Below are positions 47,967-62,160 of a stretch of 64,000 nucleotides of DNA, piece by piece. Numbering within the stretch: the stretch's first letter is position 1; each line of letters begins with the position of its first letter. The stretch lies in IMG/VR virus record IMGVR_UViG_3300020125_000051, positions 17,008-81,007 of that record. One strand, given 5' to 3'. The position numbers and the translations under genes were made by a program. The notes below the pieces were generated by a model. It made no database searches, was not told the DNA's origin, and worked only from the letters and a program-made list of their open reading frames with translations. The stretch is from a virus.

Positions 47967-47977
47967 ATGCTATTGCG

Positions 47978-48050: not shown

Positions 48051-48058
48051 TCTCATTT

Positions 48059-49563
48059 TCATTTGTATTTCTTAGGAAGATAGGAAGTCATATTTACTTC
48101 CGATGCTATACGTACCCATTTATTATGGATAGCACGTAATTCACTTTCAGTAGCACGCGGTTCGTTGATATGTGCATCTAGAAAAAACTGCCAAATTTCA
48201 GGATAGTTTTTCCCAATGCACGCACCAGATTGCATGTTTGGCATTATGAACCTACTTTACTTCCATCATCTTGCCAATAAAATTCACCATTAACACCCAC
48301 TGGTCGATGAACACCACAGTGTACACAATAAGTGGCGCCATAGAAACCAGGATTACGCGCGTAAGTTTCCGCAATCGGTTGACTCATTCTTGTTTCAGTA
48401 CCACAGTACTCGTGGATATAAGTACGTCGTACTGGACGAACGAATCCTTTAGCTCTTTCTTCCTCAGAAAGAACCAAATAAATTTCTGCTTGTGGAATAG
48501 CTGGACCATCTAATGATTCAGCACCATGTGTGAGGCGCGGGTCATTAGGGTCTGAAGTTACATTACCCATCAGAATGCATCCCAAAGTGCAGAGTGACGA
48601 TGAGGGAAATTCTGGAAATCATAATCTTCTAATTCCTCAATAGGCATTTTTAGCATTTCACTTGCTGCTAAACGCCACCGAGTGCGATCTTTACCATTTG
48701 CTTTAGCGCGATATACTTGCTCACTCTTTGGACGACCATAGATACCACTAGTGTAGTAATGTTCTCTGGTGAAGTTAAATTCACACCAGTACTGTACACC
48801 ATCAAAATCACAAACACCCTTACGGTGATCGTGGTCTTCCACTCTCATCTGTGGGTTTTGCCGAAGCCTAACTTCCCACGGAGTAGTCTTATCGGTTTTA
48901 GACATGTTAGTTTGCACCAATCTGCAAACTGGACCATCCAGTTTACTATAACATGTCTTCTCCTCTCCTCATAAGCATCACCTGATACATGATACTCACA
49001 ATCATCTTTCCAACAAAGATTGTCGGATCCATATAGTTTAGAGCTAGCTTCACAACTATTTGCTATTGGTACTGAATAAACTTCTGGCTCAAACTTAAGC
49101 ATAACACGACTGGTCCGATTTGACAAGCCGTATATAACGTTACCAAGCCACTCAAATCGGGATAATTGGGACATAACGCCACAGCACGGACAAAAGCGAT
49201 GCCAAATAAACTCATATATTGGCATCCACCACGGTACTCTAACAATCGCTAGTTTGTCACCATCTTTATGTGACAAGACATGAACTTGTAACATATGTCC
49301 TCCTCGGACCTAGATACTGTTCATGTCTGTTTCCTTTCTGCTTGATTCGGAGTTAACTTCATACACCATAAACAAAAATCATGTTCTGGACGACCACATT
49401 GATCTGCTTCTGGACTATGACCGAAGAAGAAACAAATAGTACTTTGAATTCGATCATAGATCCAACCCAAAGAGTCGACTGTTCTAGTAGATTTTTCAAA
49501 TTGATCATATCTATGTTCAAACCAGAACATGATTTTTTGTTGAAATCTTTCTTTCTTATTCAC
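48059..49563 (-). other. Run of small hypothetical ORFs (48059, 48244, 48570, 48845, 49321)
   Basis: Abutting - strand ORFs, several Cys/His-rich. Confidence 0.55.
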
Positions 49564-49564
49564 G

Positions 49565-49635
49565 CTCCACCACCAGGATTCGAACCTAGATCAACCGATT
49601 AACAGTCGGTCGCACTGCCCTTGTGCTATGGTGGA
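49565..49635 (-). tRNA. tRNA-Asn(GTT)
   Basis: Cloverleaf; loop CTGTTAA. Confidence 0.92.
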
Positions 49636-49642
49636 ATGATCT

Positions 49643-49978
49643 TTATATTTTGAAGAAACTTTTTATCTTTACGATAATGTCATATAATATTTCTTGGTTT
49701 TGAACTTGAAATTTAATTAGTTTTATTACGCGCCACCAAATTACAAAAGCAATGGCGCCAATTACTATTGTCCAACCTTTAATAGCATCCATTCGTTCGA
49801 GGTGTGGAGCTACAAGTGAATAAATGAATGCTACCGCAAGCGCTAACATGAAGAAGAGTACATGCTTACCCATAGAATCACGCCATGGTTTTAACAGCGC
49901 GTACAATATGCAAAACGTTACGAATCCAGCAACAACAATCCAAACCAGAATCATCAACACAATCTCAGGGAGAGCCAT
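49643..49978 (-). CDS. Putative holin-like protein with three TM helices
   Basis: Three hydrophobic helices; Y.....PW....G..V pattern. Confidence 0.6.
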   Translation of the reverse strand: MALPEIVLMILVWIVVAGFVTFCILYALLKPWRDSMGKHVLFFMLALAVAFIYSLVAPHLERMDAIKGWTIVIGAIAFVIWWRVIKLIKFQVQNQEILYDIIVKIKSFFKI

Positions 49979-50210
49979 GGTTATTCCTTCTAAGCATGCT
50001 GTCGTTCATGGCTGCTGTAAAACTATCTACGCGGTACTTCACACGTCGAGCGCTCGCTACAGCTTTTGCTAGTTCTGGTAATTGTTGCTTTGTCTCAGCC
50101 AATTTTGTTTGGGCATTTTGCAATTTCTCATCTACTGAATCCTCATCAGTAAATGATGCTGCGGATCTCTCGGCTATCTTACGTTTTGTTAACCAATTCC
50201 ATAGCTTCAT
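49965..50210 (-). CDS. Small coiled-coil protein of lysis-cassette type
   Basis: Coupled between two membrane-protein genes. Confidence 0.55.
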   Translation of the reverse strand: MKLWNWLTKRKIAERSAASFTDEDSVDEKLQNAQTKLAETKQQLPELAKAVASARRVKYRVDSFTAAMNDSMLRRNNHGSP

Positions 50211-50521
50211 TATAAAACCTTCTCAACCGTTTGTGGCGGTAAGGCAGCTATCATTCCTTGCGCCCGGGAGACCTCTAGAATCTGTTCTATTTTTGAAGCT
50301 AGTAAATCATTTCGTTCATCTTGCAGTTTGTTAATTGTTTCAAGCTTATCGATGTATTTGTCTTTGTCTTGCAAAGACCTTTCATATAAAGCAACTATCT
50401 TATCTACTGCTGATTTTGTATATATTGCACCACTTCGAAGACCCAGGAATAAAAGAGCCAGAAATGCACCAGCCATGCCAAATTGAAGCCATGGCACAAT
50501 GTCGATGCCATTCGGTCCCAT
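50210..50521 (-). CDS. Single-TM coiled-coil membrane protein
   Basis: N-terminal TM helix, G.IYT, then coiled coil. Confidence 0.6.
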   Translation of the reverse strand: MGPNGIDIVPWLQFGMAGAFLALLFLGLRSGAIYTKSAVDKIVALYERSLQDKDKYIDKLETINKLQDERNDLLASKIEQILEVSRAQGMIAALPPQTVEKVL

Positions 50522-50591
50522 TTTTGCCTCATCTTGAATTGGTGCTCAACCGACCCCTCAGAGATTACGTCATAAAGGGCCGGCGAGACAA

Positions 50592-50849
50592 CTAATCAGC
50601 ACCATTTAATACCTCATAGCACTTCTGACAATCAAAATACACATCGTTGTCAGGATTTTGTGCATCTTCTAATGTGATGGCACGATCGCCCATGACCGCA
50701 TCACCACAGAAGCTGTTCATTGTTTCTAAGTTAATAACATGTGTAGTTGGTTCATTAATTTCTGTCATGTTATTCCTTAATTGAGGTTCTAATTGTCCAG
50801 GAGTTTCCCATGGTAATGCATATCTCCATGCTGGGTTCCTAGTAATCAC
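50592..50849 (-). CDS. Hypothetical Zn-binding protein
   Basis: H...CG...FDCQKC pattern, similar to 18241-18417. Confidence 0.55.
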   Translation of the reverse strand: MITRNPAWRYALPWETPGQLEPQLRNNMTEINEPTTHVINLETMNSFCGDAVMGDRAITLEDAQNPDNDVYFDCQKCYEVLNGAD

Positions 50850-50850
50850 G

Positions 50851-50922
50851 GTTCCACAGTAGGATTCGAACCTACACTATCACCGTTACCGGGCTGCCTC
50901 TACCAATTGGGCTATATGGAAC
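50851..50922 (-). ncRNA. tRNA-like RNA lacking an anticodon loop (CCG-GTAA-CGG tetraloop hairpin)
   Basis: Intact acceptor, D and T arms; truncated anticodon arm. Confidence 0.75.
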
Positions 50923-51060
50923 TTTATAGGATATGGTTACTGTTCGTTTCGAGTTGCTTTCAGTGTATACCCTAGCTGACCCTGACGAACCTGACCCATT
51001 TACTCATCTACCATCGTGGGATTTAAATCGTCGACTCCCACTCCCTCACCATATCTTACG

Positions 51061-51133
51061 CGATACCGACGGGATTCGAACCCGCATAATCCACCGTGAC
51101 AGGGTGGTGCACTGACCATTATGCTACGGTACC
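51061..51133 (-). tRNA. tRNA-Asp(GTC)
   Basis: Cloverleaf; loop CTGTCAC. Confidence 0.92.
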
Positions 51134-51477
51134 TTATTTAGTTATTTGCGAATATCTATCTTATGAGAACGCAATCTGGCAACTACTGAGTTTCTAGTCC
51201 AAACTATGCCAGTTGAATTAAAATCATCTATTATTTCATTAATGACTGCGTTACGCACATTAGCTTCAATACGTGTATGATAAGCAGCTAGTACAGGTTC
51301 CATGGCTTCGATCATTTGTCCACCGACACCTGCAAAGAAATCCGCCATAGCAGATGCTTCTTCGGGAGTAAGTGTGCCATTCATGTATACACTTGCTAGG
51401 AACTTATTACGAATTGCATCGTGCGATACAACAGTCATCTTAGTTCTTCCTGTGGTGTTTATTATTGATGGTACATG

Positions 51478-51550
51478 TGGAGAATATCGGATTCGAACCG
51501 ATCACCTCTGCCTTGCAAAAGCAGCGCTCTACCAAATGAGCTAATCCCCC
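51478..51550 (-). tRNA. tRNA-Ala(TGC)
   Basis: Cloverleaf; loop TTTGCAA; G3-U70 pair. Confidence 0.92.
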
Positions 51551-51644
51551 AATGACATATTGGGTGTGGTCCCATACCAGAATTCTAAACCCCTATCCAC
51601 AAAAGGGGTACTCTTGGCAGCGGTGCATATGTCAGACACCTCAG

Positions 51645-51725
51645 TGGGCATGGTTGGTATCGAACCAACTTTGCGTTATACGCATCGGTTTTACAGACCG
51701 ATCCCTGGACCTCCAGGACACACCC
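51645..51725 (-). tRNA. tRNA-Tyr(GTA), atypical short D loop
   Basis: Loop CTGTAAA; long variable arm; D arm CCTGG-AGGT-CCAGG. Confidence 0.8.
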
Positions 51726-52186
51726 ATATTCAATTATTATTCTCTTGATTTATTATTTGGATGTTCTGGACATTTATATTGATGTTCGAATCCGCGACAA
51801 CCTAAGCAATCATTGAACCAAGCTTCAATGTATCCATACCATCCACCTTTAGATCTAGATATGGTAGCATCTATCCTTTTAGCATTAGTGAATTCATCTG
51901 ATCTGATAACAACAGATACAATCGAAGACATTTGTAAGAATGTTTCGGTTGGTTCATCGCTGTACCATTCGCCCCATGTTCCATCTTTTATTATTCTTGT
52001 AGCCATGTCGGGATATGCCTCAGTTCCCATCTAGCATTGGCTGATGCTCTCTTACAATCATCACATCTACAACCATATCTATACTTAGTTGTAGTTCCAT
52101 GTGCAGGATCTCCATATTCTTTTTGTTCTAGCTTAGTTCTCATTGGCATTGTAATAATCTCCAATGCTATACATATATACAATTTT

Positions 52187-52264
52187 TGGTCGGGATAGTA
52201 GGATTTGAACCTACGGCCCCTGCGTCCCAAACGCAGTGCTCGTACCAAACTGAGCTATATCCCG
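52187..52264 (-). tRNA. tRNA-Pro(TGG), CCA encoded
   Basis: Cloverleaf; loop TTTGGGA. Confidence 0.93.
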
Positions 52265-52462
52265 TTGACTGGTGCAATGTTAGATAACGGAGGCGTAGGC
52301 ACATTAGGTGACTAGACTAATGCACGGCGTTTCTATTTGCATCTAAACATTGCGGTGATTGTAGTTGGTAATGGCTTCTGCTGTCGAGCATTATTAACAG
52401 TACCTACTACAACACTTTTACCAGTTGTTGGCTACAAACCCATGCATTGATTTATAGCTACG

Positions 52463-52534
52463 TAGTCTCGGAGGGAGTCGAGCCCTCTTCACAGCGGTGA
52501 AAGCGCTGTATCCTAACCCATAGACGACGAGACC
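52463..52534 (-). tRNA. tRNA-Glu(TTC)
   Basis: Cloverleaf; loop CTTTCAC. Confidence 0.88.
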
Positions 52535-52687
52535 TTATTTAATTGGTGATAGGTTGGTAGTTTCCTTAACACTACCGGTGCCACATTTTGAGCACATATC
52601 CGCAACTCAATATGTAGTCCACCACTGCCCTTTGTGTACTGTATTTATGCGGCCCATACAGCCTTACTGGATAGGCTACCCCTATCG

Positions 52688-52761
52688 TTGGACACCACAG
52701 GATCGAACTGTGCACCTCTACGTTATCGGCGTAGCGCTCTAACCAAATGAGCTAGTGTCCA
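52688..52761 (-). tRNA. tRNA-Ile(GAT)
   Basis: Cloverleaf; loop CCGATAA. Confidence 0.9.
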
Positions 52762-52864
52762 ATAACCCTCACCCTAGACAACTGGCATTGCTAGAGACTC
52801 TTGGGCTACGCACCTGCCAGGGCACTTGCATCGCAACGAGATTAACGAGTCCCGCCCAATACCG

Positions 52865-52935
52865 TACAGACAGAGAGGATCGAACTCTCGCTAGTAGATT
52901 GAGAATCTACCGGTCTGCCATTAACCTATGCCTGC
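52865..52935 (-). tRNA. tRNA-Glu(CTC)
   Basis: Cloverleaf; loop TTCTCAA. Confidence 0.88.
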
Positions 52936-53103
52936 TCACTACCAACTAACTTAATTGATAATACTTCATTTTCTTGGGCCATGAAAATACAAACTCCACC
53001 AGCGATGAACCTAAACCAACCACCTAATTGCTTATATTCATCAGCAATTACTATAGTAGGGATAGATGGTGTCTTAACATATCTTACATCATATTTATTC
53101 ATG

Positions 53104-53176
53104 TGCTTCCGGTGAGATTCGAACTCACACTTAAAGGATTTTAAGTCCTTCGCCTCTGCCATTGGGCTACGAAAGC
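53104..53176 (-). tRNA. tRNA-Leu(TAA)
   Basis: Cloverleaf; loop CTTAAAA. Confidence 0.92.
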
Positions 53177-53230
53177 TAGGTGACTATCCTTTACGGCGAT
53201 AGTCGTTCCGCTTCCTGTCGGGAAGTTATA

Positions 53231-54820
53231 TTAGATTCTACCTGCGCTAAACGCAGAAACCAATTTAGGCAAGTTTGAATCTGCGCCCGCTACGTCTAGC
53301 ATACCACTATCTGTGGGATTTGCAATAGAAAATCGCGTTGGAGTACATGCAACAACAATCAACTTTGCGTCATGACCTATAAACCTGCGATAATCCTTCA
53401 ATGCAACATGAGGATGTACATTACCAGCCCATGTTTCACTATCAGTCATTACCACAAAGGTATCAACGTCGATGCCACGTTCCTTGGCATATACCATTGG
53501 CAGTGAACAATCTGTACTACCAAAATTGCGATCCTTAGTTCTTTGCATTACTTCAGCTAGTGACATATTAGGTGCTATTCCCAAATCAACAAAATTCTGG
53601 GAGAATCCCATGATTTGGTAGAATGGCTCAGTTCTGGCAATCGTCATTGACATAGCTGCGCAAACTTCGGCAGCAGTTAAGTCAATGCCAGCCATCGACT
53701 GAGACATAGAACCAGAAACATCAAGAGCTATCATGGTACGCTTGTTAGCTGGTTCTACGTACTTAAAGGCACGATAGAAACCATCATCAAGTGCATTTAC
53801 GATAACAGGATTAGTTGCCCAATTCTTTTCATAGGTGTGACTCCATGCGTACTTACGATCACGCTGACCACGCTGATGCACAGTAGATGCTAGCAAATAC
53901 TGGAAAGGATGCAAGCGCGTACGCTGAATCATTTCCTCATCTACAAGCTTATCTGCATATGCACGAGCAAAGTGCATGTCCTCGAAAGCACCAATACGAG
54001 CAAGTCTAGTGATATTACGTACTAGAGCCTGACCGTTAAGCTGTCCATTACCGAAAAGCATCTTCCATACATCAGGAACCTTTAGGAATTGAGTAGGAAT
54101 GGCTTCCCAGGGAAGATTTGGATAACGCTCTAGTGCTGAAAGCACATGTCCTATCATGGTAGATGCTTGCATCCGCTTGAATCCAGCAATTATCAGCGGA
54201 TCTACATTAACTTCATTATCAAAGCCATGCACGAAATCGCCAATTGCCTTATTCAATCCCACAGGATGTGAAAGCATGAGCAAACCCTTGTGGGTCCAGC
54301 CGTTCCGTTGACGGTACTTTACCACCTGATACGCAAGGCTGTCAACATCCTTGCTAATGTACCAATCGGCAATCGCGCGCCGCTTTGCTCGTCCCCAACC
54401 ACCTAGAAGTTTGATATATTCAGCAAACTCGAATAGATGAGTTGACGTGCGACACACCTTAGCTAAGTCCTGCGAAGATTTTGCCTTGCCAAAGGTAAAC
54501 AGCGCGGCCAAACAAAAAATTGCAGGACTATTGCGGAAAGCACGGCCAGACTGTGAGATTTCAACTACAGTATCACGAACTAACTGCTCATCACGCTCAA
54601 TTAGTTCGCGTAGAAAGTTGATGTTATCCTTAGTAAGCTTCTGCTCGTCAACATAGTATGTTCCACCTTCGGTACCCAAAATAAGAAAACGCTCTAGGCG
54701 AGTCTTATCTGTTACCTCAAACGTAAAACCACCAGCATTGTTAGCAACCTGCCGAGGATCTTCTTGCTCTGACTGTGGTATTGGTGTTCCTAGTGTTCTT
54801 GAAAATACGTTGTTTGCCAT
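53231..54820 (-). CDS. rsr: Ro60/Rsr RNA-binding protein (TROVE + vWA)
   Basis: QV.NNAGGF.F, RL.RFLILG.EGGTYY, GGWGR..RRAI..WY, KYRQR.GW.H..L...SHP, AL.RN, DVSGSM MIDAS, TDCSLPM and TDSETW.G..HP motifs. Confidence 0.96.
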   Translation of the reverse strand: MANNVFSRTLGTPIPQSEQEDPRQVANNAGGFTFEVTDKTRLERFLILGTEGGTYYVDEQKLTKDNINFLRELIERDEQLVRDTVVEISQSGRAFRNSPAIFCLAALFTFGKAKSSQDLAKVCRTSTHLFEFAEYIKLLGGWGRAKRRAIADWYISKDVDSLAYQVVKYRQRNGWTHKGLLMLSHPVGLNKAIGDFVHGFDNEVNVDPLIIAGFKRMQASTMIGHVLSALERYPNLPWEAIPTQFLKVPDVWKMLFGNGQLNGQALVRNITRLARIGAFEDMHFARAYADKLVDEEMIQRTRLHPFQYLLASTVHQRGQRDRKYAWSHTYEKNWATNPVIVNALDDGFYRAFKYVEPANKRTMIALDVSGSMSQSMAGIDLTAAEVCAAMSMTIARTEPFYQIMGFSQNFVDLGIAPNMSLAEVMQRTKDRNFGSTDCSLPMVYAKERGIDVDTFVVMTDSETWAGNVHPHVALKDYRRFIGHDAKLIVVACTPTRFSIANPTDSGMLDVAGADSNLPKLVSAFSAGRI

Positions 54821-54824
54821 TTTT

Positions 54825-54850
54825 GAACGACCCCTTTCAAGGGATATATT
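54825..54850 (-). promoter_or_regulatory. Permuted Ro-type helix covering the rsr ribosome-binding site
   Basis: - strand AATATATCCCT-TGAA-AGGGGTCGTTC-AAAA-ATG contains both conserved Y-stem strands (TATATCC, GGGTCG). Confidence 0.6.
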
Positions 54851-54863
54851 GTGTTACATTACG

Positions 54864-54932
54864 TGGCATGGGTAGGATTCGAACCTACTTCCCTAGGACT
54901 GCGTAGCTTTTCCAATTAAGCCAATCCATGCC
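54864..54932 (-). ncRNA. tRNA-like RNA with defective anticodon arm
   Basis: GGCATGG/CCATGCC acceptor, D arm, perfect T arm; only 17 nt between D and T arms. Confidence 0.7.
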
Positions 54933-54935
54933 AAG

Positions 54936-55024
54936 TGGGGACACATGGAGTCGAACCATGTCAACTCAGACTGATCAATCTGAGGGCTAGTTTTGATCAG
55001 TATATACTAGCGTCCAAAGTCCCC
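54936..55024 (-). ncRNA. tRNA-like RNA with enlarged D arm and complementary D/anticodon loops
   Basis: GGGGAC/GTCCCC acceptor, GCTAGT/ACTAGC, CTCAGA/TCTGAG and CATGG-TTCGACT-CCATG. Confidence 0.7.
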
Positions 55025-55030
55025 TTGAAT

Positions 55031-55161
55031 GTTGGATATAGTTTGATAATCGGGGTTTTTGATAGCTCTTGGGCTCCGAATCGAACGGAGACCTTATACT
55101 TTTCAAGTATATATGCTACCTTTTACACTACCCTAGATAACCGACTATCGATCGACCCAAC
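55031..55161 (-). ncRNA. Y-RNA-like Y1: Ro-type stem carrying a complete tRNA-Phe-like cloverleaf
   Basis: GTTGGGTCGA..GTCGGTTATC...CCGATTATC..TATATCCAAC. Confidence 0.8.
55066..55137 (-). tRNA. tRNA-Phe(GAA)-like cloverleaf embedded in Y1
   Basis: TCTAGGG/CCCAAGA acceptor with one mismatch, TATAC-TTGAAAA-GTATA, CTCCG-TTCGATT-CGGAG. Confidence 0.7.
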
Positions 55162-55170
55162 AAAAATCTA

Positions 55171-56397
55171 TTAACCTTCTGCCATGATCTGATTATCTAT
55201 GTTTGCACCAGATGAATCTAGCACATTTCCAGAAATTGATAATCCGCCGCAGCCATCAGTGTGCTTAGCTGGAAAACCAGTACCAGGGAAAATAGGTCCA
55301 AATCTGTTGTTTAACAACGAACCGCGGTTCTGAGCACAGTAAACTGTGTACGAACCACCAACAAGTAAGTTGTTAGTAATTGTTAAGTTAGACTGAATTC
55401 CATGCCCAAAGTTTGGATCATTTGGGGGTCCAGAAGTAAATGTAGCATTGTCATCAGTCATTAAAACTGTGTTATGAATATACTGAATGTTGCTTTCGGA
55501 AGCAGAGCGCGCTGGCCAAACCTGAATACCATCAGTATGTGGATCTGGCGCTACACTATCACCCTTGAACATTCCATGTATATAAGAATCACGAATCGTG
55601 AAAACTGAGTTTGCGTCGCCACCGTTTTCGCAATTGCTAATATCGGCGCCAGTTACAAACAAAAATTCATCACCAAAAGCAGTACCACCATGCATACTAG
55701 GACCACAGAAAACAGACACATGATCCATAGTAGTTACGCCGCCACTATCGGCTGCACCAGCGGTTTCTACAACATAACCTGGAACATTGCAATTAACTGC
55801 AACATTCCTAAATGTTACATTTTGAGCTGTAATTACAGGACATCCAACAATAGTAACGTCATGAATTACTGCACCAGCAGTACCAAAGGTTAATGAGCCA
55901 CTATATGCTGGTAGACTTCCATGCGCGCCTGCCGTTGTGGCATCAGGGAAACCACAGGAACCAGGATTAGCCGCGCAATTGTTACCAGAAGGTGGTGGAC
56001 TCGTAGTAGTCGGAGGTGGAGTTGTCGTTGGTGGTGGATTAGTGGTAGTAGGTGGTGGAGTAGTAGTAGGTGGAACAGTCACCGTTGGTGATGGTGACGG
56101 AGAACCTGTTACTGTAGAACTAGGTGTTGGTGTTGGTGTTGCGGTTAGTCCTGCAATAACCTTTTGCTTGATTATAATACATTGTTGTGCTCTTGTCCGC
56201 TCAGCGGATGTAGTTGCAAATTGTAGGTCTAACTGACATTGTCTTAATAATCGTTGTGCATCGGTTAAATCTGAACTAGCATCCGCTGACGCTCGTTCAT
56301 TATTTGTAAAGATAACTAATGCACCAGTAATTAATGCCATAACTGCAAACCAAATTGCAATTTTCTGCCTTGTTGAACTTATGTGCGTTTCGAGCAT
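55171..56397 (-). CDS. Secreted protein: signal peptide, P/T linker, parallel beta-helix-like domain
   Basis: Hydrophobic N-terminus ending ASA; PPTTT repeats; PDATTAG, I.DSYIH, HTDGIQ and NN.L.GG.Y motifs. Confidence 0.75.
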   Translation of the reverse strand: MLETHISSTRQKIAIWFAVMALITGALVIFTNNERASADASSDLTDAQRLLRQCQLDLQFATTSAERTRAQQCIIIKQKVIAGLTATPTPTPSSTVTGSPSPSPTVTVPPTTTPPPTTTNPPPTTTPPPTTTSPPPSGNNCAANPGSCGFPDATTAGAHGSLPAYSGSLTFGTAGAVIHDVTIVGCPVITAQNVTFRNVAVNCNVPGYVVETAGAADSGGVTTMDHVSVFCGPSMHGGTAFGDEFLFVTGADISNCENGGDANSVFTIRDSYIHGMFKGDSVAPDPHTDGIQVWPARSASESNIQYIHNTVLMTDDNATFTSGPPNDPNFGHGIQSNLTITNNLLVGGSYTVYCAQNRGSLLNNRFGPIFPGTGFPAKHTDGCGGLSISGNVLDSSGANIDNQIMAEG

Positions 56398-56465
56398 TGT
56401 ACCTCCACTAGAAGAACTAACCGGAGATCAATGTCCAAATTATCACTTCCATTCATTTTAGCACG

Positions 56466-56548
56466 CGGAAGCTAAAGGAGTCGAACCCTTAGGTATTACC
56501 CTAGCCAGATTTTCAAGACCTGTTGCCCACCACTGAGCGCTAGCTTCC
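56466..56548 (-). tRNA. tRNA-Ser(TGA)
   Basis: Loop CTTGAAA; long variable arm. Confidence 0.9.
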
Positions 56549-56553
56549 TTGAG

Positions 56554-56625
56554 ATATCGGATATATTTGCGTTAATTGGATGGTCTGCAGAAACAGTTGA
56601 TAACCAATTAGCTTTGACCCGATAT
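56554..56625 (-). ncRNA. Y-RNA-like Y2 (minimal)
   Basis: ATATCGGGTCAAAG..ATTGGTTATC..CCAATTA..TATATCCGATAT. Confidence 0.75.
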
Positions 56626-56630
56626 TTAAA

Positions 56631-56825
56631 TTAGAGTAGTTCTCCTGCTAACTTTGTCATTGCTGATTTTGCTTCATGCAGTTTAACACATAGCGGAGAA
56701 TATAGAACTTTACCTGAACAATGTTGGGCAGCGTTTGCTTCTGAGTTTCTTTCCTCACGTACTATTGCCCAAATTAGTGCTTCATGTACCTTGTCAATTT
56801 CACGAATGATATCTGCTCTGTCCAA
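56631..56825 (-). CDS. Hypothetical protein
   Basis: Abuts the NlpC/P60 gene. Confidence 0.5.
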   Translation of the reverse strand: MDRADIIREIDKVHEALIWAIVREERNSEANAAQHCSGKVLYSPLCVKLHEAKSAMTKLAGELL

Positions 56826-57590
56826 TTATACAAACCTCTTAGCGGCATAGAATGAATACAAGTTGTTAATGATTACACCTTGCTTGTATCCGGCAGCTTC
56901 GACAATCTTACCATTACCAATATAGACAAACACATGACCAATGAACGGCCAAACTATATCTCCAGGTTGTAGATTGTTGCGAGACACCCGAACACCTTGG
57001 TTAGAATAAAGGATCTGTGCATCTTGATGAGGCACATTAATTCCAACCTGAGCTAGTGACATCATCACAAGACCAGAACAATCAAATGCATATGGTCCAG
57101 CAGCAGCCCAAGAATAACGCTTGCCAACCTGAGCTAATGCGTAGTTGACAATTCTTTGCGCTCTTGAAGTGTTAGCTGATGCTACTGTGGTGGTTGCCTT
57201 AATTACTGGCTTAGTTACTGGTGCCGTGGCAGGTACCGAACTAACCACAGGTGCAGTAGGTACAAAAATTTGCTGACCTACACCAAGCTGATTGCAGTTG
57301 GCAAGTTTATTATACTGACAAATACCTGGCCAATACCCAGGATTCGAATAGACAGCGTTGGAAATACCAAAAAGACTTCCATAAGGAGAAGGATACTTTT
57401 GAGTAGTAATCCAAGTGCCAATTGGCTTCGCTACGGCCACCGATTCAACAGCTTTTGCTGTTTCTGTTGCTGCCACTACCTTCTGGTCGACTATTGTCGT
57501 CGCTCCCGCAGGAGTTGCAATGGCAAAAACGCTAATACTTATGAGTAGGCTGCCTAATGAAGCTTTTATGGCAGACTTGGATCTAGACAT
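56826..57590 (-). CDS. Secreted LysM-like + NlpC/P60 peptidoglycan endopeptidase
   Basis: Signal peptide; LysM-like SLFGIS...W..I...N....L.VGQ.I.VP; Y.W...GP..FDCSGL, LQPGD and HV..Y.G.G motifs. Confidence 0.9.
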   Translation of the reverse strand: MSRSKSAIKASLGSLLISISVFAIATPAGATTIVDQKVVAATETAKAVESVAVAKPIGTWITTQKYPSPYGSLFGISNAVYSNPGYWPGICQYNKLANCNQLGVGQQIFVPTAPVVSSVPATAPVTKPVIKATTTVASANTSRAQRIVNYALAQVGKRYSWAAAGPYAFDCSGLVMMSLAQVGINVPHQDAQILYSNQGVRVSRNNLQPGDIVWPFIGHVFVYIGNGKIVEAAGYKQGVIINNLYSFYAAKRFV

Positions 57591-57764
57591 TTATATCCTA
57601 TCTCTTTGCGAAAACAGACAGGATGAGCTAGTTAGAGTTTAAAGTCTGTTTTCGCCCCTGTTTGAATATTAAATTGTATTTTAGATGCATGTTAGCTTTG
57701 TTTCACCACCCTTTTAGAGGCAAGTATACGGATCTCCCGTATCACCATACGCTAACATGCAACG

Positions 57765-57836
57765 TGCCAAGAGCAGGACTCGAACCTGCGCATCATGTTC
57801 TTCAGACATGCGCTCTGCCAACTGAGCTATCGAGGC
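57765..57836 (-). tRNA. tRNA-Phe(GAA)
   Basis: Loop CTGAAGA; two acceptor-stem mismatches. Confidence 0.82.
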
Positions 57837-57840
57837 AATG

Positions 57841-57900
57841 ATAAGGATATATTTTTGTCATCGTTATTTGCTGTGATAACCGATGAACTTTGACCCTTAT
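57841..57900 (-). ncRNA. Y-RNA-like Y3 (minimal, 60 nt)
   Basis: ATAAGGGTCAAAG..ATCGGTTATC..CGATGA..TATATCCTTAT. Confidence 0.72.
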
Positions 57901-57908
57901 CTCAAAAC

Positions 57909-58313
57909 TTAAATTCCGTCTAGAATGTCTGGTGCGGCTGTTTCTTCTGCTGTTGGTGCTGTCGTCGCTGGTGGCTCTGGCGATGCTGCCTCAACGGCAG
58001 TGTCGAGTGTAGTAAGTTGATTGCTCGCATCAGTTAGTGCAGTCTCGGCATCACTGAGTGCTGAAAGTGCACCAGTAACATCTGGCGAAGCCTGGCTAAG
58101 TAGCCGAGTAACATCCTTAACTAATTCAATCGTGTTTTTGAGCACTGTCTGAGTAGCTGTAGAAACTTCAGCTACCTTAGCAGTTAGTTCGTCGACGCCT
58201 GCCATTACCTGATCCACCTTTGCTGGTAGTTCTGGATCACTTACCACGGTAGTGTGGAAGTGTATGGTAGTAACGGATGATGGGATTCCATCTAGATGGA
58301 AGAAAACATCCAT
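57909..58313 (-). CDS. Acidic coiled-coil protein
   Basis: Heptad-like A/L/V pattern. Confidence 0.6.
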   Translation of the reverse strand: MDVFFHLDGIPSSVTTIHFHTTVVSDPELPAKVDQVMAGVDELTAKVAEVSTATQTVLKNTIELVKDVTRLLSQASPDVTGALSALSDAETALTDASNQLTTLDTAVEAASPEPPATTAPTAEETAAPDILDGI

Positions 58314-58336
58314 TTGACCAACTTTCTTTAGTGCAG

Positions 58337-58409
58337 AGCCACAGGTAGGAATTGAACCTACGAAAACAGGTTTTGCAGACCTGCGCCTTTACCATTCGGC
58401 CACAGTGGC
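58337..58409 (-). tRNA. tRNA-Cys(GCA)
   Basis: Loop CTGCAAA; U73. Confidence 0.9.
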
Positions 58410-58410
58410 G

Positions 58411-58487
58411 TGGGGTGTATGACGGGATTTGAACCCGCGAATGACTAGAGTCACATTCTAGCTCCTGATGCCTCCGGATCATACACC
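58411..58487 (-). tRNA. tRNA-His(GTG), G-1:C73 and CCA encoded
   Basis: Loop ATGTGAC. Confidence 0.85.
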
Positions 58488-58489
58488 AG

Positions 58490-58562
58490 TACCAACGAGG
58501 GGAGTCGAACCCCTAACAACTAGAACCTAAATCTAGCGCCTCTGCCATTGGGCTACGTTGGC
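58490..58562 (-). tRNA. tRNA-Leu(TAG)
   Basis: Loop TTTAGGT. Confidence 0.9.
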
Positions 58563-59015
58563 AAGTTATTAGGATTCCATTCATGGTATGTTACAGTTGA
58601 AATCCTTTTGATTGTACGAGTTAACACAGTTCTATTGCTAAATTGCAACATACATTCATCACAAATATTAATCATTAACTGGTGAATATTAGACATTGGA
58701 TCCCAGACCGTACTACCATATTGTCCACTTGAGTAAAATGTAGTAGCTTCTTGTGGTTGGAAATTCCATCGGTTAGTATCTCTATCCGAGTCAGGTTTAA
58801 AGACAGGTTCCAATTCTTTATCACATTTGAAACAATTAACTGGTAGCTTCATTTTTGTCTCCAGACATAAAAAGATGGTTCCTTTTGTTATCAAGAGTAG
58901 GAACCAAAAAGCTCTCCGTCAACAAGGAATTTTTTCAGCCCGGTTACGTCTGGCTTAAAATTATGTTGACTCAAACGTTTCGACGGTTACCTTTATACCG
59001 AGGTAACAGCGGTTG

Positions 59016-59642
59016 CTAATTAAGTAACGCTGTATCAGTCACAGTGTAAGAACCTCGGGAGATCCATACATAACCTGTGGTGTTGTTAAATTCAACCTGG
59101 AACATTGTTGACTTATTTACGTCAGTGCCAAATCCATTGATTGTGCCAGCGAAAGCCATGATTGGGTTATTCCACTGATCGCAAAGCTGCGCTACTGCCG
59201 CAGTACCAGCAAAGTGGTTCTTGACTGAGCGCCAAGCAAAGTTTACTAATGGAACACCACGATCATTGTTTTCAATTCGAATCTTATAGAATTGCTGCGA
59301 ATTGGCAAACAATGCTGGTTGAGCATTATCAGAAACGTAAACTGTCGTAAATCCTACGGTTCTTATGATACCCTTCCCACAGGAGACTTGAATAACCGAA
59401 GAATCTTCGATTTTCTTGCCATCTGAGTTATATCGATCAAACATATGATCAGTATCAAAGCCTAAACTTTCGCAATGAGCCTGATACACAAGTTGGCCAT
59501 CAGTACCATAGTTATAGATGGTACCTGGTGAATTTCCCAATGCTCGCATAGCTGCCGCAATTGAATTGCTGACACTTGAGCAGCCAGATAAAGTAACTAT
59601 TGCTAGCACTAGACCAGCTAGTACTACAAAACTTTTTTTCAT
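59016..59642 (-). CDS. Lipoprotein
   Basis: MKK, hydrophobic core, LSGC lipobox. Confidence 0.8.
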   Translation of the reverse strand: MKKSFVVLAGLVLAIVTLSGCSSVSNSIAAAMRALGNSPGTIYNYGTDGQLVYQAHCESLGFDTDHMFDRYNSDGKKIEDSSVIQVSCGKGIIRTVGFTTVYVSDNAQPALFANSQQFYKIRIENNDRGVPLVNFAWRSVKNHFAGTAAVAQLCDQWNNPIMAFAGTINGFGTDVNKSTMFQVEFNNTTGYVWISRGSYTVTDTALLN

Positions 59643-59643
59643 T

Positions 59644-60057
59644 TTATCCTTTATTTGTTTTATTTGTCAAATTTTGTGTTGCTCTATACTGACGATCGTA
59701 TAACCGTTTATACTCTTTACATAAATCACATCTACAATGATGATAAGTATACCCAGAACCAGTACCGTGCGGTACTGACCTATTATAGTTTTCATCATTG
59801 TTTTTTAATGCATGACAAGTTTTACATAAAACTTGGCATTTAGCTAATTCATTTATTCGCTTTGGATTTGTTTTGGCTAATGACCATACGCTCGCCACGG
59901 CGAATCCTTTGGAAGATTTATCTTTGTGATCCACTTCCAAATTTTCTTTAGAACCACACCGTTTGCATGGACCGTTTTCGTTGATCCACTCTTCTCTTCT
60001 AGCCTTAATCCAAGCCAATTGGTATTCACGTTTGTCTTCTTTTGAAGCAAAGGGCAT
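59644..60057 (-). CDS. HNH endonuclease with C-terminal CRC Zn motif
   Basis: C..CG...LEVDH, CQVLC..CH..K and HGT.SGY....CRC..C; start taken at MPFAS. Confidence 0.8.
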   Translation of the reverse strand: MPFASKEDKREYQLAWIKARREEWINENGPCKRCGSKENLEVDHKDKSSKGFAVASVWSLAKTNPKRINELAKCQVLCKTCHALKNNDENYNRSVPHGTGSGYTYHHCRCDLCKEYKRLYDRQYRATQNLTNKTNKG

Positions 60058-60080
60058 AATCACCACCCTATTATAATAAG

Positions 60081-60163
60081 CGGAAGATAAAGGATTCGAA
60101 CCTTTGGAGGTTTCCCCCACTGTCTTAGCAGGACAGCCCGATCGTCCACTCTGGCAATCTTCC
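60081..60163 (-). tRNA. tRNA-Ser(GCT)
   Basis: Loop CTGCTAA; long variable arm. Confidence 0.9.
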
Positions 60164-60216
60164 AGATGCTAGCAGAGCCACGCAACTCTGCTAGCATTTC
60201 TCCTCCCCCGGAGAAG

Positions 60217-60288
60217 AACCGATGACCAGAATCGAACTGGCATACTCTGATTGGAAGTCAGATTCCTTAACCATTAGGAGACATCGGC
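60217..60288 (-). tRNA. tRNA-Gly(TCC)
   Basis: Loop CTTCCAA; U73. Confidence 0.9.
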
Positions 60289-60290
60289 AG

Positions 60291-60421
60291 ATGTTGGATA
60301 TAACTTGTGATCGGCGTTTTGTTCTACTTCCCAATTCTGGGTTGGGCGTGCTAAATTACACTAAACTCAACAGTTTCCTGTTTTCTTGGGTTAGATAACC
60401 AATCAACTTTCGACCCAACAT
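60291..60421 (-). ncRNA. Y-RNA-like Y4: tRNA-like domain opened at the T loop
   Basis: Ro-type stem, GAAA-capped acceptor, D arm, and CCCAA-CCCAGAA-TTGGG arm. Confidence 0.75.
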
Positions 60422-60727
60422 GTAAAACATAATCCGCACCAGTGCAACATACGTTGGACGATGCGGAAGATTGATTGCCCTTCCAATCATAGCGTCTAGA
60501 ACGCTTATGGTTCCAAGCCTGTGATCTTCCCCAATATGATTGGAAGGGCATTTGCAGCACACGGGACAATGGTACCATTGTAAGGCGCCCGGTGCAACAG
60601 CAATAAAACCATGGTAGTGATGGGCTGACCTAATTTCACCACACTTATAGTTCGTCACGAAGATTATTGAACTATAAGACTACAGCCAGTACCGACCATC
60701 GATAGCACCACACCATGGAGCTAGTGC

Positions 60728-60837
60728 TATGGATATATTAGCGAATATCGGGTTTAACTAGGCGCCGAGCCATCGATGGAGTCGAACCATCTTTCGTCTG
60801 ATTAACAGTCAGATAACCAATATTCTTTCGACCCATA
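60728..60837 (-). ncRNA. Y-RNA-like Y5: tRNA-Asn-like domain opened at the D loop
   Basis: Ro-type stem, TCTGA-CTGTTAA-TCAGA, and GATGG-TTCGACT-CCATC. Confidence 0.78.
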
Positions 60838-60840
60838 ACG

Positions 60841-60911
60841 CGCGAACTGTAGGATTCGAACCCACAATAACCGCTTTGGAGACGGTTGTGTTACCATTAC
60901 ACTAAGTTCAC
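60841..60911 (-). tRNA. tRNA-Trp(CCA)
   Basis: Loop CTCCAAA. Confidence 0.9.
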
Positions 60912-61020
60912 TAGAGCAGTGGATATCTGTGATGCACTCACCACTGCGTTGTGCAATGACATACGGCCGTATGCCAACCCGCTAACCATACTTGTTGAGC
61001 TTTCGGTTAGTTCGGTCCAG

Positions 61021-61093
61021 TACCCTCAGAAGGAATTGAACCTTCTACTTCTACGTTCGTAGCGTAGCGCTCTGTCCGATGAGCTATGAGGGT
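61021..61093 (-). tRNA. tRNA-Arg(ACG)
   Basis: Loop CTACGAA. Confidence 0.9.
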
Positions 61094-61098
61094 TAAAA

Positions 61099-61232
61099 GT
61101 TTGGATATAAGTTGAAATCGGTGTTTTTATATGCGCTCTGCCACTGAGCTAATATACGGAATTTCACCGTACGATACAGGAGTCGAACCTGTGACCTCAT
61201 ATTCCTGATAACCAATTTCTGTCGACCCAAAC
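61099..61232 (-). ncRNA. yrlA: YrlA-type Y RNA (Y6): tRNA-like domain opened at the anticodon loop
   Basis: Ro-type stem, then T arm ACAGG-TTCGACT-CCTGT, loop-closed acceptor, and D arm TAGCTCAGTGGCAGAGC. Confidence 0.88.
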
Positions 61233-61238
61233 CAAAGA

Positions 61239-61403
61239 CTAATTAACAAATGATTGGAACGCAGATATTACGTCGTTGTCGTCACTTACAGCTTCAACAA
61301 TACGTTTAGCTGCCTTTGCCAATTCTGAATCTGGCGCTGTTTCAATGAGATCCTTTAAATCTATTTGTGAAACATCAACCAGTGGTGTAAAGACTTGATC
61401 CAT
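61239..61403 (-). CDS. FxSxx-COOH (FxsA)-like peptide, 54 aa
   Basis: Translated by hand: MDQVFTPLVDVSQIDLKDLIETAPDSELAKAAKRIVEAVSDDNDVISAFQSFVN; SD GAGG. Confidence 0.72.
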   Translation of the reverse strand: MDQVFTPLVDVSQIDLKDLIETAPDSELAKAAKRIVEAVSDDNDVISAFQSFVN

Positions 61404-61567
61404 TTTTACCTCATTATAGAAATGTGTCTGGCGCTGTCCCCAATATCACAGCCTCTAGCAACCTACCCCACCAGCTACATTATTTTGATTACGTGTCTCG
61501 AACCAACACCACACGCTTGTCAGACCCATACTGGTGCAGGATGTCTGATTTCCACTAAAAAGCTAAT

Positions 61568-61635
61568 GATACAGATATAAAAACGCTATCGGAGTAATCA
61601 TCCAGTAAGATAACCGACAGCAATCGACCCGCATC
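61568..61635 (-). ncRNA. Y-RNA-like Y7 (minimal)
   Basis: GATGCGGGTCGA..GTCGGTTATC..CCGATAGC..TATATCTGTATC. Confidence 0.72.
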
Positions 61636-61644
61636 ATAAAAAGT

Positions 61645-61798
61645 CTCGTGAATATAGTTAAGAATCGACCGTTTATTCTCACACGCTATGGACATAAACC
61701 ACTACGTGCTGCCACTGCCATGTGGCGTGCTACTGGAGTAAATCCAGTAACAGGATTCGAACCTGTAATTAGATAATCGATTCAATTCGACTCACGAG
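61645..61798 (-). ncRNA. Y-RNA-like Y8: T arm, closed acceptor and an extra domain
   Basis: Compensated stem GAGTCGA/TATATTC and ATCGA/TCGAT; ACAGG-TTCGAAT-CCTGT; TACTGGA/TCCAGTA. Confidence 0.75.
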
Positions 61799-62160
61799 TC
61801 AAATCCTTGCCAATCTTTAAAATCTGGAAAAGCTTCTTCAATCGTGTATGTCAACCTTGGTCGAGTGGGATTTATTACCCTAGTTTTCGACTTAGGCTTT
61901 TTGGCACGATCATTATTGCAATTTATATGCGCAAGTACCATATTATCATCTGATCGTGCTTCTTCTTTTGTACAGAATTGAAGTTCTTTAATGTGCTCAC
62001 GGGACGCTTCGTCTCTGCGACATGGATTGAAGCAGATTTGACATATCCCGTTATCACGAACAAAGATTCGATTCAATTGCACAGTTTTATCGTTTGAATC
62101 TTTTCTATTTCTACGGGCTGTAGCATTCATTGTTTCATAATTAGGCTTTTTACGGCTCAC
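61792..62160 (-). CDS. HNH endonuclease
   Basis: RD.GICQIC, S.EHI and N.VLAH..CN motifs. Confidence 0.8.
   Translation of the reverse strand: MSRKKPNYETMNATARRNRKDSNDKTVQLNRIFVRDNGICQICFNPCRRDEASREHIKELQFCTKEEARSDDNMVLAHINCNNDRAKKPKSKTRVINPTRPRLTYTIEEAFPDFKDWQGFDS

What the first reader, a model, noticed from the sequence alone, without database searches (positions are those of the whole stretch)
55031..55161. Y1: a complete tRNA-Phe(GAA) cloverleaf nested inside a Ro-type stem
The Ro-type stem extends from the acceptor end of an unpermuted tRNA (55066-55137) with intact D, anticodon and T arms. It has G73 rather than the A73 usual for Phe and one acceptor mismatch, and a separate tRNA-Phe exists at 57765. 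It could be an end-blocked, unchargeable anticodon decoy, or a Ro-guarded precursor released conditionally.
Basis: partly seen in the sequence, partly recalled or inferred. Interest (0 to 1): 0.78.

Follow-up and report, generated by a model that had tools for sequence, protein, structure and literature searches.

The report
Whole tRNA inside phage Y RNA
A soil phage that encodes the RNA-binding ring protein Ro60 has, just upstream of that gene, a small RNA in which the conserved stem of Ro60's partner "Y RNAs" clamps both ends of a complete phenylalanine tRNA. I did not find this layout described for Y RNAs, and it may show how they are built from tRNAs.

Summary
A tRNA-Phe(GAA) lies at 55066-55137 on the minus strand (ARAGORN; Rfam tRNA 55.9 bits). 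Its flanks form a 7-8 bp outer helix, an internal loop carrying GUCGAUCG, and a 9 bp inner helix followed by UUAUC. This is the scaffold of seven more Y-type RNAs in the window. All lie on the strand of an intact Ro60 gene (53231-54820), which starts 210 nt downstream of Y1.

The scaffold covaries strongly: 97% paired against 28-41% in slid controls. The same nested, unpermuted cloverleaf occurs in three related phages. Across the four copies, six helices are 96% paired and 24 of 38 pairs show compensatory changes. The anticodon loops differ (GAA, AUU, GCG, CCA), and D or T loops are degenerate in two copies.

Best reading: Y1 is a true Y RNA whose cargo module is a whole tRNA shape, selected for shape rather than decoding. 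This copy keeps every tRNA-Phe feature, so release of a working tRNA is not excluded. No RNA data exist.

It is a new variant of the known tRNA-like Y RNAs (YrlA, Yrn1). Earlier notes of this scan report the same layout on other phage DNA (e1-5970931, e1-3743821, e1-5890030); I did not check those.

The parts
55155..55162 (-). Outer scaffold helix, 5' strand: (U)GUUGGGU
   Evidence: Pairs with 55030-55037. The equivalent columns covary among the aligned Y RNAs of four phages (helix 1, 98% paired).
55149..55156 (-). GUCGAUCG, the Y-RNA 5'-strand motif. It matches GNCGAAN0-1G of Chen et al. 2014 at 7 of 8 positions. CGAUC (55154-55150) is the 5' side of the internal loop.
   Evidence: Read from the sequence. 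The motif definition is from PMC4201824. The nested copies in G001 and G002 have the exact GUCGAAG. A CGAA-bearing loop is part of the two RNAs that the Thermus phage phiLo Ro60 was shown to bind (PMC12135203).
55141..55149 (-). Inner scaffold helix, 5' strand: GAUAGUCGG
   Evidence: Pairs with 55045-55053. 8 of 9 pairs change on both sides in the family alignment (helix 2).
55136..55140 (-). UUAUC, which holds the conserved YUAY of YrlA-type RNAs and is present in seven of the eight Y elements of the window. Its last two bases are nucleotides U1 and C2 of the tRNA.
   Evidence: YUAY is described in PMC4201824.
55066..55137 (-). Complete unpermuted tRNA-Phe cloverleaf running from U1 to G73. 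The anticodon GAA is at 55104-55102. The acceptor stem is 6/7 paired, with an A4.A69 mismatch.
   Evidence: ARAGORN. Rfam tRNA 55.9 bits. The four arms covary with three orthologous nested elements.
55054..55065 (-). 3' linker CUAUCAAAAACC. It starts with C74, the base that follows the discriminator in all 29 tRNA genes ARAGORN finds in the window, this one included. No CCA is encoded.
   Evidence: The linker is 5 nt in the three orthologues.
55045..55053 (-). Inner scaffold helix, 3' strand: CCGAUUAUC
55038..55044 (-). Internal loop, 3' side: AAACUAU. It is part of the conserved 3' motif ...UAUAUCC.
   Evidence: the same AUAUCC ending is seen in nearly all family members.
55030..55037 (-). 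Outer scaffold helix, 3' strand: AUCCAAC(A). Six nt further on, a tRNA-like element begins at 55024.
53231..54820 (-). Ro60 (Rsr) gene, 529 aa, the presumed protein partner
   Evidence: Pfam vWA_Ro60 E 5e-59 and TROVE E 1.7e-33. It is 57% identical to the 'Ro-like RNA binding protein' of Streptomyces phages and 59-66% identical to metagenomic relatives.

Best explanation
Y1 is a genuine member of the phage's array of Ro60-partner Y RNAs. The conserved scaffold is the outer helix, the internal loop with the GNCGA motif, the inner helix and UUAUC. This scaffold is the presumed Ro60 docking module. The variable 'cargo' position is filled by a complete tRNA in its native, unpermuted order, joined through its acceptor ends.

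The class is conserved in at least four related soil phages. It is selected for the whole tRNA shape, including the anticodon arm, but not for a particular anticodon. I therefore infer that the RNA mainly works as a Ro60-bound, tRNA-shaped handle that brings a tRNA-recognising factor or enzyme to Ro60, or hides Ro60 from it. Its primary role would not be as a decoding tRNA gene.

Inferred maturation: the RNA is cut out of a polycistronic transcript. Its 3' end would be set by RNase P cleavage of the tRNA-like element that starts 6 nt downstream. RNase P probably also nicks at U1, as it does in M. smegmatis YrlA, leaving the two pieces held together by the 16-17 bp scaffold.

Shown here: the anatomy, the family membership of the scaffold, conservation and covariation, and Ro60 linkage. 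Inferred: Ro60 binding, the processing steps and the tether function.
For: - **Scaffold family.** The scaffold motif occurs 7 times in the window against 0.04 expected, all on the Ro60 strand. All eight elements fold the same way around different cargo.
- **Ro60 linkage.** The same 5' motif sits on the Ro60 strand near Ro60 genes in dozens of other phage loci.
- **Scaffold covariation.** 97.1% paired against 28-41% slid.
- **Nested class.** Nested cloverleaf elements occur in G001/L141:4538-4663, G002/L168:4198-4324 and G004/L210:1501-1634. On the four-row alignment, six helices are 96% paired against 36-46% slid, and 24 of 38 pairs change on both sides, including 5 of 5 anticodon-stem pairs.
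- **tRNA and YrlA scores.** All four cargo domains pass Rfam's tRNA gathering score (55.9, 44.2, 39.2 and 32.3 bits). None hits YrlA.
- **A discrete class.** A model built from the four scores them 105-123 bits, with the next hit at 46 bits in 840 kb of Ro60 neighbourhoods.
- **No fixed anticodon.** The anticodon loops differ: UUGAAAA, UCAUUGA, CUGCGUG and UUCCAAC. The D or T loops are non-canonical in G002 and G004.
- **A separate tRNA-Phe.** A syntenic tRNA-Phe exists in the window (57765-57836), in L141 (2857) and in L168 (2581).
- **Literature.** Y RNAs are modular, and the GNCGAA motif is taken as the Ro60 contact. M. smegmatis YrlA is cleaved by RNase P and receives CCA while bound by Rsr (PMC4201824). 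A phage Ro60 binds phage Y-like RNAs that have a CGAA loop (PMC12135203).
Against: - No RNA or protein-binding data exist for this uncultured phage. No RNA run holds the sequence.
- This copy is fully tRNA-like. It has a canonical anticodon loop, G18G19 with a UUCGA T loop, an R15-Y48 pair and C74, like every other tRNA of the phage. Host RNase P and 3' processing might therefore simply release a tRNA.
- The other tRNA-Phe has two adjacent acceptor mismatches, so the nested one could be the working gene.
- The Y1 motif is GUCGAUCG, one base off the published consensus.
- Only four sequences support the cloverleaf covariation, and their alignment was fitted to the model.
Confidence: 0.55

Rival explanations
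1. Ro-stem-flanked precursor. The main product is a mature, chargeable tRNA-Phe(GAA, G73), excised by RNase P and a 3' endonuclease. The leader-trailer scaffold either remains as a two-piece Y RNA or, when Ro60 is bound, delays or gates release of the tRNA.
For: - The Rfam tRNA score of 55.9 bits lies inside the 36-69 bit range of the phage's other tRNAs.
- The anticodon loop is canonical with A36-A37-A38, and all elbow nucleotides are present.
- G73 is followed by C74, as in the other 28 tRNA genes of the window.
- U1-A72 and other non-G1 starts occur in 8 other tRNAs of the phage.
- The unpaired UUA and the 12-nt linker leave the cleavage sites outside the helices.
- tRNA-Phe no. 2 has the U4.U69 and C5.U68 mismatches.
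- The nested element of G004 even encodes G73-CCA.
- The syntenic tRNA-Phe of L141 also uses G73.
Against: - In the three orthologues the cargo has lost decoding features. G001 has C33 and an AUU 'anticodon'. G002 has a pyrimidine at 37 and a UUGGAGU T loop. G004 has no G18G19 and a UGAGAUG T loop. The scaffold and all four arms are nevertheless kept by compensatory change.
- Two of the four lack C74.
- Phe codon demand is unremarkable at 41 per 1000.
Confidence: 0.3
2. Evolutionary accident. A tRNA gene, or its decaying copy, was inserted into or recombined with a Y-RNA gene. The chimera is inert or on its way to loss.
For: - The window's Y scaffolds carry very different cargo, which suggests frequent cargo exchange.
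- The cargo has no close tRNA relative, at most about 66% identity among 693 tRNAs.
- Each of three nested copies has one acceptor mismatch.
Against: - The nested layout is kept in four phages whose Ro60 proteins are only 59-61% identical.
- Compensatory changes occur in every helix. This is not expected of a decaying chimera.
Confidence: 0.1
3. An ordinary tRNA gene whose flanks pair by chance, or that form an RNase III-type processing stem unrelated to Ro60.
For: - Leader-trailer duplex energy alone is not exceptional: it ranks 81st of 687 tRNAs.
- Other tRNAs have strongly pairing flanks without the motif, for example tRNA-Gln in L152/L182.
Against: - The flanks carry the exact family motifs (GGGUCGA..GGUUAUC .. 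UAUAUCC) shared with seven other elements, against 0.04 expected. The same motifs occur in Y RNAs next to Ro60 in many phages.
- The helices covary.
Confidence: 0.03

Closest known systems
YrlA (Y RNA-like A; Rfam RF02553; Chen et al. 2014, PMC4201824; structure in Wang et al. 2018, bioRxiv 10.1101/312249)
   Same: It is encoded next to and on the strand of Ro60/rsr. Its 5' and 3' ends form the presumed Ro60-binding stem with the GNCGAA motif, followed by YUAY. Its second module mimics tRNA, with D and T arms and the tertiary pairs.
   Different: YrlA is like a circularly permuted tRNA. The Ro stem stands where the anticodon arm would be, the acceptor stem is a closed hairpin, and there is no anticodon loop or free end. 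In Y1 the order is native (acceptor, D, anticodon, variable, T, acceptor). The anticodon loop is present and canonical, and the Ro stem continues from the acceptor ends. Y1 gives no YrlA hit in Rfam.
Deinococcus radiodurans Yrn1 (Chen et al. 2014)
   Same: According to the paper, Yrn1 has the opposite orientation to YrlA. A stem-loop between its T- and D-like parts occupies the anticodon-arm position, so the Ro60 stem is on the acceptor side. This is the same topology as Y1.
   Different: Yrn1 has no clear D arm, a 6-nt 'anticodon' loop and no variable region, and no orthologues were found. Y1 is a full tRNA that passes tRNA gene finders.
Mycobacterium smegmatis YrlA processing (Chen et al. 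2014)
   Same: It has a 7-bp acceptor stem inside a Y RNA that RNase P recognises. Cleavage, 3' nibbling and CCA addition follow while the RNA stays an Rsr ligand. This is the precedent for a nicked Y1.
   Different: There the cut opens a closed acceptor hairpin of a permuted mimic. In Y1 the cut would separate the 5' scaffold strand from a complete tRNA.
Thermus phage phiLo Ro60 with Yrl1/Yrl2 (NAR 2025, PMC12135203)
   Same: A phage-encoded Ro60 has Y-like RNAs just upstream. They have a 5'-3' stem around an internal bulge with CGAA. Binding was shown in vitro, and complexes form with host PNPase.
   Different: As far as I could read (passages from a term search only), the paper does not describe a tRNA cargo in those RNAs. 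The loop in Y1 reads CGAU.

Membership tests
Y RNA (Ro60/Rsr partner RNA) | Encoded close to a Ro60/TROVE gene on the same strand | tested here: met
   The 3' end of Y1 (55031) lies 210 nt upstream of the Ro60 start (54820) on the same strand. Ro60 was confirmed by Pfam.
Y RNA (Ro60/Rsr partner RNA) | The 5' and 3' ends pair into a long stem interrupted by a conserved bulge or internal loop | tested here: met
   Searches give the structure. Covariation is shown.
Y RNA (Ro60/Rsr partner RNA) | GNCGAAN0-1G motif on the 5' strand (Chen et al. 2014) | tested here: inconclusive
   Y1 reads GUCGAUCG, with U where the second A of the consensus GAA stands. The nested copies in G001 and G002, and Y4 and Y5 of the window, match exactly. 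GNCGAU recurs in other Ro60-linked elements.
Y RNA (Ro60/Rsr partner RNA) | Bound by Ro60 in vivo or in vitro | not testable with these tools
   The phage is uncultured and no RNA run holds the sequence.
YrlA (RF02553) | Matches the YrlA covariance model at the gathering score (69 bits) | tested here: not met
   There is no YrlA hit over Y1 at E <= 10. The only weak hit (14.5 bits) lies downstream at 54796-54915.
YrlA (RF02553) | Module order is T arm, closed acceptor hairpin, D arm, with the Ro stem in place of the anticodon arm | tested here: not met
   The order in Y1 is acceptor-D-anticodon-T-acceptor. Y6 of the same window does have the YrlA order.
YrlA (RF02553) | Conserved YUAY after the Ro-binding stem | tested here: met
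   UUAUC lies at 55140-55136.
tRNA (RF00005) | Cloverleaf scoring above the Rfam gathering score and called by a tRNA finder | tested here: met
   55.9 bits against 29. ARAGORN calls tRNA-Phe(gaa).
tRNA (RF00005) | Seven-nt anticodon loop with U33 and a purine at 37, plus elbow nucleotides G18, G19, U54, U55, C56 and A58 | tested here: met
   Alignment to the model.
tRNA (RF00005) | Processed to free 5' and CCA 3' ends and aminoacylated | not testable with these tools
   Only indirect evidence is available. C74 follows the discriminator as in all other tRNAs of the phage, but both ends run into the scaffold helices.

The most novel reading that the evidence does not exclude
Y1 and its orthologues are Ro60-docked RNAs that display an anticodon. 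Each phage would present a tRNA look-alike of a chosen specificity (Phe here; Trp-like CCA, GCG and AUU in relatives) with its acceptor end locked in the Ro60 scaffold. Such an RNA could be a decoy or sensor for host enzymes that attack or count tRNAs, such as anticodon nucleases or VapC-type toxins. Alternatively it could be a tRNA reserve that Ro60 releases on demand.
Probability: 0.15. Interest if true: 0.85.

Novelty: new variant of a known kind. Interest (0 to 1): 0.6.

Why it matters
Chen et al. [quoted passage not shown]

Here the same Ro60 scaffold holds a complete tRNA that gene finders accept. Beside it are siblings with YrlA-type cargo, partial cargo or no cargo. Orthologues in related phages show the cargo at different degrees of tRNA-likeness. 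Together these give a concrete series for how Y RNAs acquire and remodel tRNA modules.

It also raises a testable question: can a Ro60 particle carry, mask or release a real tRNA during infection?

There is a practical point too. Such elements are annotated as ordinary tRNA genes, which inflates phage tRNA counts and hides the Y RNAs.

Tried and rejected
- **Close DNA relatives.** blastn of 54700-55300 against 50,697 phage records found no match.
- **Ro60-anchored searches.** IMG/VR and metagenome contigs gave only relatives at 56% identity or less. A profile of close Ro60s was needed to reach the four-phage clade.
- **Motif scan of IMG/VR.** A 14-base motif scan returned mostly chance hits. 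One useful by-product was L050, another Y-RNA array.
- **Leader-trailer duplex energy.** Across 687 tRNAs it did not single out Y1 (rank 81), because G+C content dominates the score.
- **Global identity of the cargo.** Comparison with 693 tRNAs found no close relative and no recent donor. The alignment scoring was crude.
- **RNA evidence.** No RNA holder is listed.
- **Strain variants.** Laying four soil-metagenome runs gave only identical low-depth fragments, so there were no natural variants to test.
- **Promoter and terminator scan.** Nothing beyond chance was found next to Y1.
- **Codon usage.** Phe is used at 41 per 1000, so it did not discriminate between the readings.
- **Other full-length hits of model R1.** L143:916, L169:3581, L147:3879, L201:3830 and others turned out to be YrlA-type Y RNAs, ordinary tRNAs with weak flanks, or a cloverleaf-like Y RNA without tRNA loops.
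- **Reviews.** Two reviews on bacterial Y RNAs (PMC10870794, PMC6047535) are not held. 'Not described' therefore rests on the papers I could read.

Full report
**Setting.** The window is bases 17008-81007 of an 81,007-bp IMG/VR phage record with direct terminal repeats. Only soil metagenomes hold the DNA. Its right third carries 29 tRNA genes, all on the minus strand. It also carries an intact Ro60 gene at 53231-54820, with Pfam vWA_Ro60 at E 5e-59 and TROVE at E 1.7e-33. The nearest cultured relatives of that protein are the 'Ro-like RNA binding proteins' of Streptomyces phages, at 50-57% identity. Metagenomic relatives reach 59-66%.

**The observation.** ARAGORN and Rfam both call a tRNA-Phe(GAA) at 55066-55137, at 55.9 bits against a gathering score of 29.
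- The cloverleaf is canonical. It has U8, A14, G18G19, an A15-U48 pair, the anticodon loop UUGAAAA, a 4-nt variable region and the T loop UUCGAUU.
- The acceptor stem has one mismatch (A4.A69), a U1-A72 pair and G73.
The outer helix is GUUGGGU with AUCCAAC. The internal loop is CGAUC against AAACUAU. The inner helix is GAUAGUCGG with CCGAUUAUC.
- Three nt (UUA) on the 5' side and 12 nt on the 3' side join the inner helix to the acceptor stem.
- The complete six-helix structure lies within 1.3 kcal/mol of the MFE.

**The stem is not chance.** The 5' motif GGTCRA-N3-16-GGTTATC occurs seven times in the window. All copies are on the minus strand between 55 and 62 kb, where 0.04 are expected. These seven elements and a divergent eighth fold into the same scaffold: outer helix, internal loop, inner helix, then UUAUC (AUUAUC in the eighth). 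The helix sequences differ and the interiors differ.
- Three elements have only a short loop as cargo.
- Y6 has the classical YrlA order of T arm, closed acceptor hairpin and D arm.
- Y1 has the whole tRNA.

GUCGAAAG and its variants are the GNCGAAN0-1G motif, and UUAU is the YUAY, that Chen et al. 2014 describe for YrlA/YrlB. The same motif lies on the Ro60 strand beside Ro60 genes in dozens of other phage loci. On an alignment of 16 rows from four phages (11 of them Y RNAs), the two scaffold helices are 97.1% paired against 28-41% in slid controls. Thirteen of 17 pairs change on both sides. A phage Ro60 has been shown to bind phage Y-like RNAs with a CGAA-bearing internal loop (PMC12135203). 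Binding of this Ro60 to this scaffold is an inference.

**Relatives.** A profile of close Ro60 proteins fetched 68 IMG/VR loci.
- Two phages syntenic with the window carry the same layout. These are G001 (L141:4538-4663) and G002 (L168:4198-4324).
- A model of Y1 found a fourth copy in G004, at L210:1501-1634.
- All four have the scaffold, UUAU, a 7-bp acceptor stem, a D arm, an anticodon arm and a T arm in native order.
- On the model-fitted alignment of the four, the six helices are 96% paired against 36-46% slid. Twenty-four of 38 pairs show compensatory change, including all five anticodon-stem pairs. The caveats are that there are only four sequences and that the alignment was fitted to the model.
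- All four cargo domains pass Rfam's tRNA threshold (55.9, 44.2, 39.2 and 32.3 bits), and none hits YrlA.
- A model built from the four scores them at 105-123 bits. The next hit in 840 kb around 80 Ro60 genes scores 46 bits. The class is therefore discrete and, in my sample, restricted to this clade.

**What varies.**

| Copy | Anticodon-position loop | Other departures from a canonical tRNA | 3' of the acceptor stem |
|---|---|---|---|
| Window | UUGAAAA (Phe) | none apart from the A4.A69 mismatch | G73-C74, then UA |
| G001 | UCAUUGA (C33, 'AUU') | variable region of 3-4 nt | U73, U74 |
| G002 | CUGCGUG (pyrimidine at 37) | T loop UUGGAGU | A73, U74 |
| G004 | UUCCAAC (canonical, CCA) | no G18G19; T loop UGAGAUG | G73-CCA encoded |

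C74 follows the discriminator in all 29 tRNA genes of the window, and in nearly all tRNAs of the relatives.

Selection therefore keeps the scaffold and a four-armed tRNA shape. It does not keep a given anticodon, and it does not always keep the elbow. RNase P and 3' endonucleases do not need the anticodon arm, so its maintenance argues that the cloverleaf is more than a processing signal.

**Is the window's copy a working tRNA-Phe?** The evidence points both ways.
- For: it is as tRNA-like as the phage's other tRNAs and keeps C74. G73 also occurs in the ordinary syntenic tRNA-Phe of G001. The window's other tRNA-Phe (57765-57836) is the syntenic one but has two adjacent acceptor mismatches, U4.U69 and C5.U68.
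- Against: the orthologues have lost decoding features, and Phe codon use is unremarkable.
- Unresolved: the cargo has no close tRNA relative, so I cannot tell whether this copy kept, regained or newly acquired its tRNA-Phe character.

**Maturation (inferred).** The Y RNAs of the window abut tRNAs.
- Y2 is followed after 5 nt by tRNA-Ser, Y3 after 4 nt by tRNA-Phe no. 2 and Y4 by tRNA-Gly. Y6 is followed by tRNA-Arg. Y5 starts 2 nt after tRNA-Trp.
- Y1 is followed after 6 nt by a tRNA-like element with a 6/7 acceptor stem, A73 and C74 (55024-54936). Its G001 orthologue has the same neighbour, and the G004 copy is followed after 3-4 nt by tRNA-Gly.
- RNase P cleavage of the downstream element would thus set the 3' end of the Y RNA.
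- RNase P may also cut at U1 of the nested tRNA. M. smegmatis YrlA, which has a 7-bp acceptor stem, is cut by RNase P and receives CCA while bound by Rsr.

**Comparison with known systems.** YrlA is a permuted mimic without an anticodon loop or a free end. Y1 fails its covariance model and its module order. D. radiodurans Yrn1 is described as having the opposite orientation, with an 'anticodon arm' of 5 bp and a 6-nt loop but no clear D arm. Y1 has that topology in complete form. I found no description of a Y RNA holding a complete tRNA in the papers I could search. Two reviews were not available. Earlier notes of this scan report the same layout in other phages, with other anticodons. They agree with my reading, but I did not test them.

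**Verdict.** Y1 is best read as a Y RNA with a whole-tRNA cargo, a new variant of a known kind (confidence 0.55). The main rival is a Ro-stem-flanked precursor that releases a working tRNA-Phe (0.3). RNA end mapping, Ro60 pull-down and RNase P/Z assays would decide between them.

Noticed in passing
window 54936-55024 (-): A tRNA-like element lies right after Y1. Its acceptor stem is GGGGACU/UGUCCCC with A73-C74, and its T arm is CAUGGUUCGACUCCAUG. It has an enlarged D loop containing CUGAUCAA and an 8-nt anticodon-position loop UUGAUCAG, which is the exact complement. ARAGORN does not call it. A look-alike follows the nested Y RNA in L141 (about 4670-4765).
   Followed up: partly
window 54866-54935 (-): A second tRNA-like element has the acceptor stem GGCAUGG/CCAUGCC, a D arm and a T arm, but only 17 nt where the anticodon arm and variable loop should be. 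It scores 23.7 bits on Rfam tRNA, below the threshold, and ends A73-C74.
   Followed up: no
window 44353-62504 (-); also L141, L168, L142, L143: C follows the discriminator (N73-C74) in all 29 tRNA genes of the window and in nearly all tRNA genes of four related phages. It is often followed at once by ATG or GTG. Almost none encode CCA.
   Followed up: partly
window 57765-57836 (-): The syntenic tRNA-Phe(GAA) has two adjacent acceptor-stem mismatches (U4.U69 and C5.U68), although it scores 62.9 bits. The syntenic tRNA-Phe of L141 has C1-G72 and G73.
   Followed up: partly
window 56554-56625, 57841-57900, 60291-60421, 60728-60837, 61099-61231 (-): Y RNAs and tRNA genes are packed end to end, 2-6 nt apart. 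tRNA processing would therefore define the ends of the Y RNAs.
   Followed up: partly
L143:916-1044 (+) = G004:C1:2394-2522: A Y scaffold encloses a four-way junction in unpermuted order: a short acceptor-like stem, a D-like arm, a 4-bp stem with the 7-nt loop ACGUGCA, and a T-position arm. It has no tRNA loop consensus. It scores 44 bits on model R2.
   Followed up: no
L210:1501-1634 (+): The nested element of G004 encodes G73-CCA directly before the 3' scaffold strand. It carries a canonical UUCCAAC (Trp-like) loop, while its D and T loops are non-canonical.
   Followed up: partly
L050:700-1400 (-): An unrelated IMG/VR contig has five tandem Y-type elements (four match GGGUCGA..RRUUAUC, the fifth has a variant), with and without T-arm cargo. 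They lie directly upstream of an ORF whose start reads like a Ro60 N-terminus.
   Followed up: no
L152:2057-2128 and L182:2059-2130 (+): The 36-nt leader and 46-nt trailer of a tRNA-Gln(ctg) pair strongly (-28.5 kcal/mol) without any Y motif.
   Followed up: no
window 54821-54852 (-): A small hairpin CCCUUGAAAGGGG with GGGGUCG lies just before the Ro60 start codon. Similar hairpins precede Ro60 in L141 and L168.
   Followed up: no
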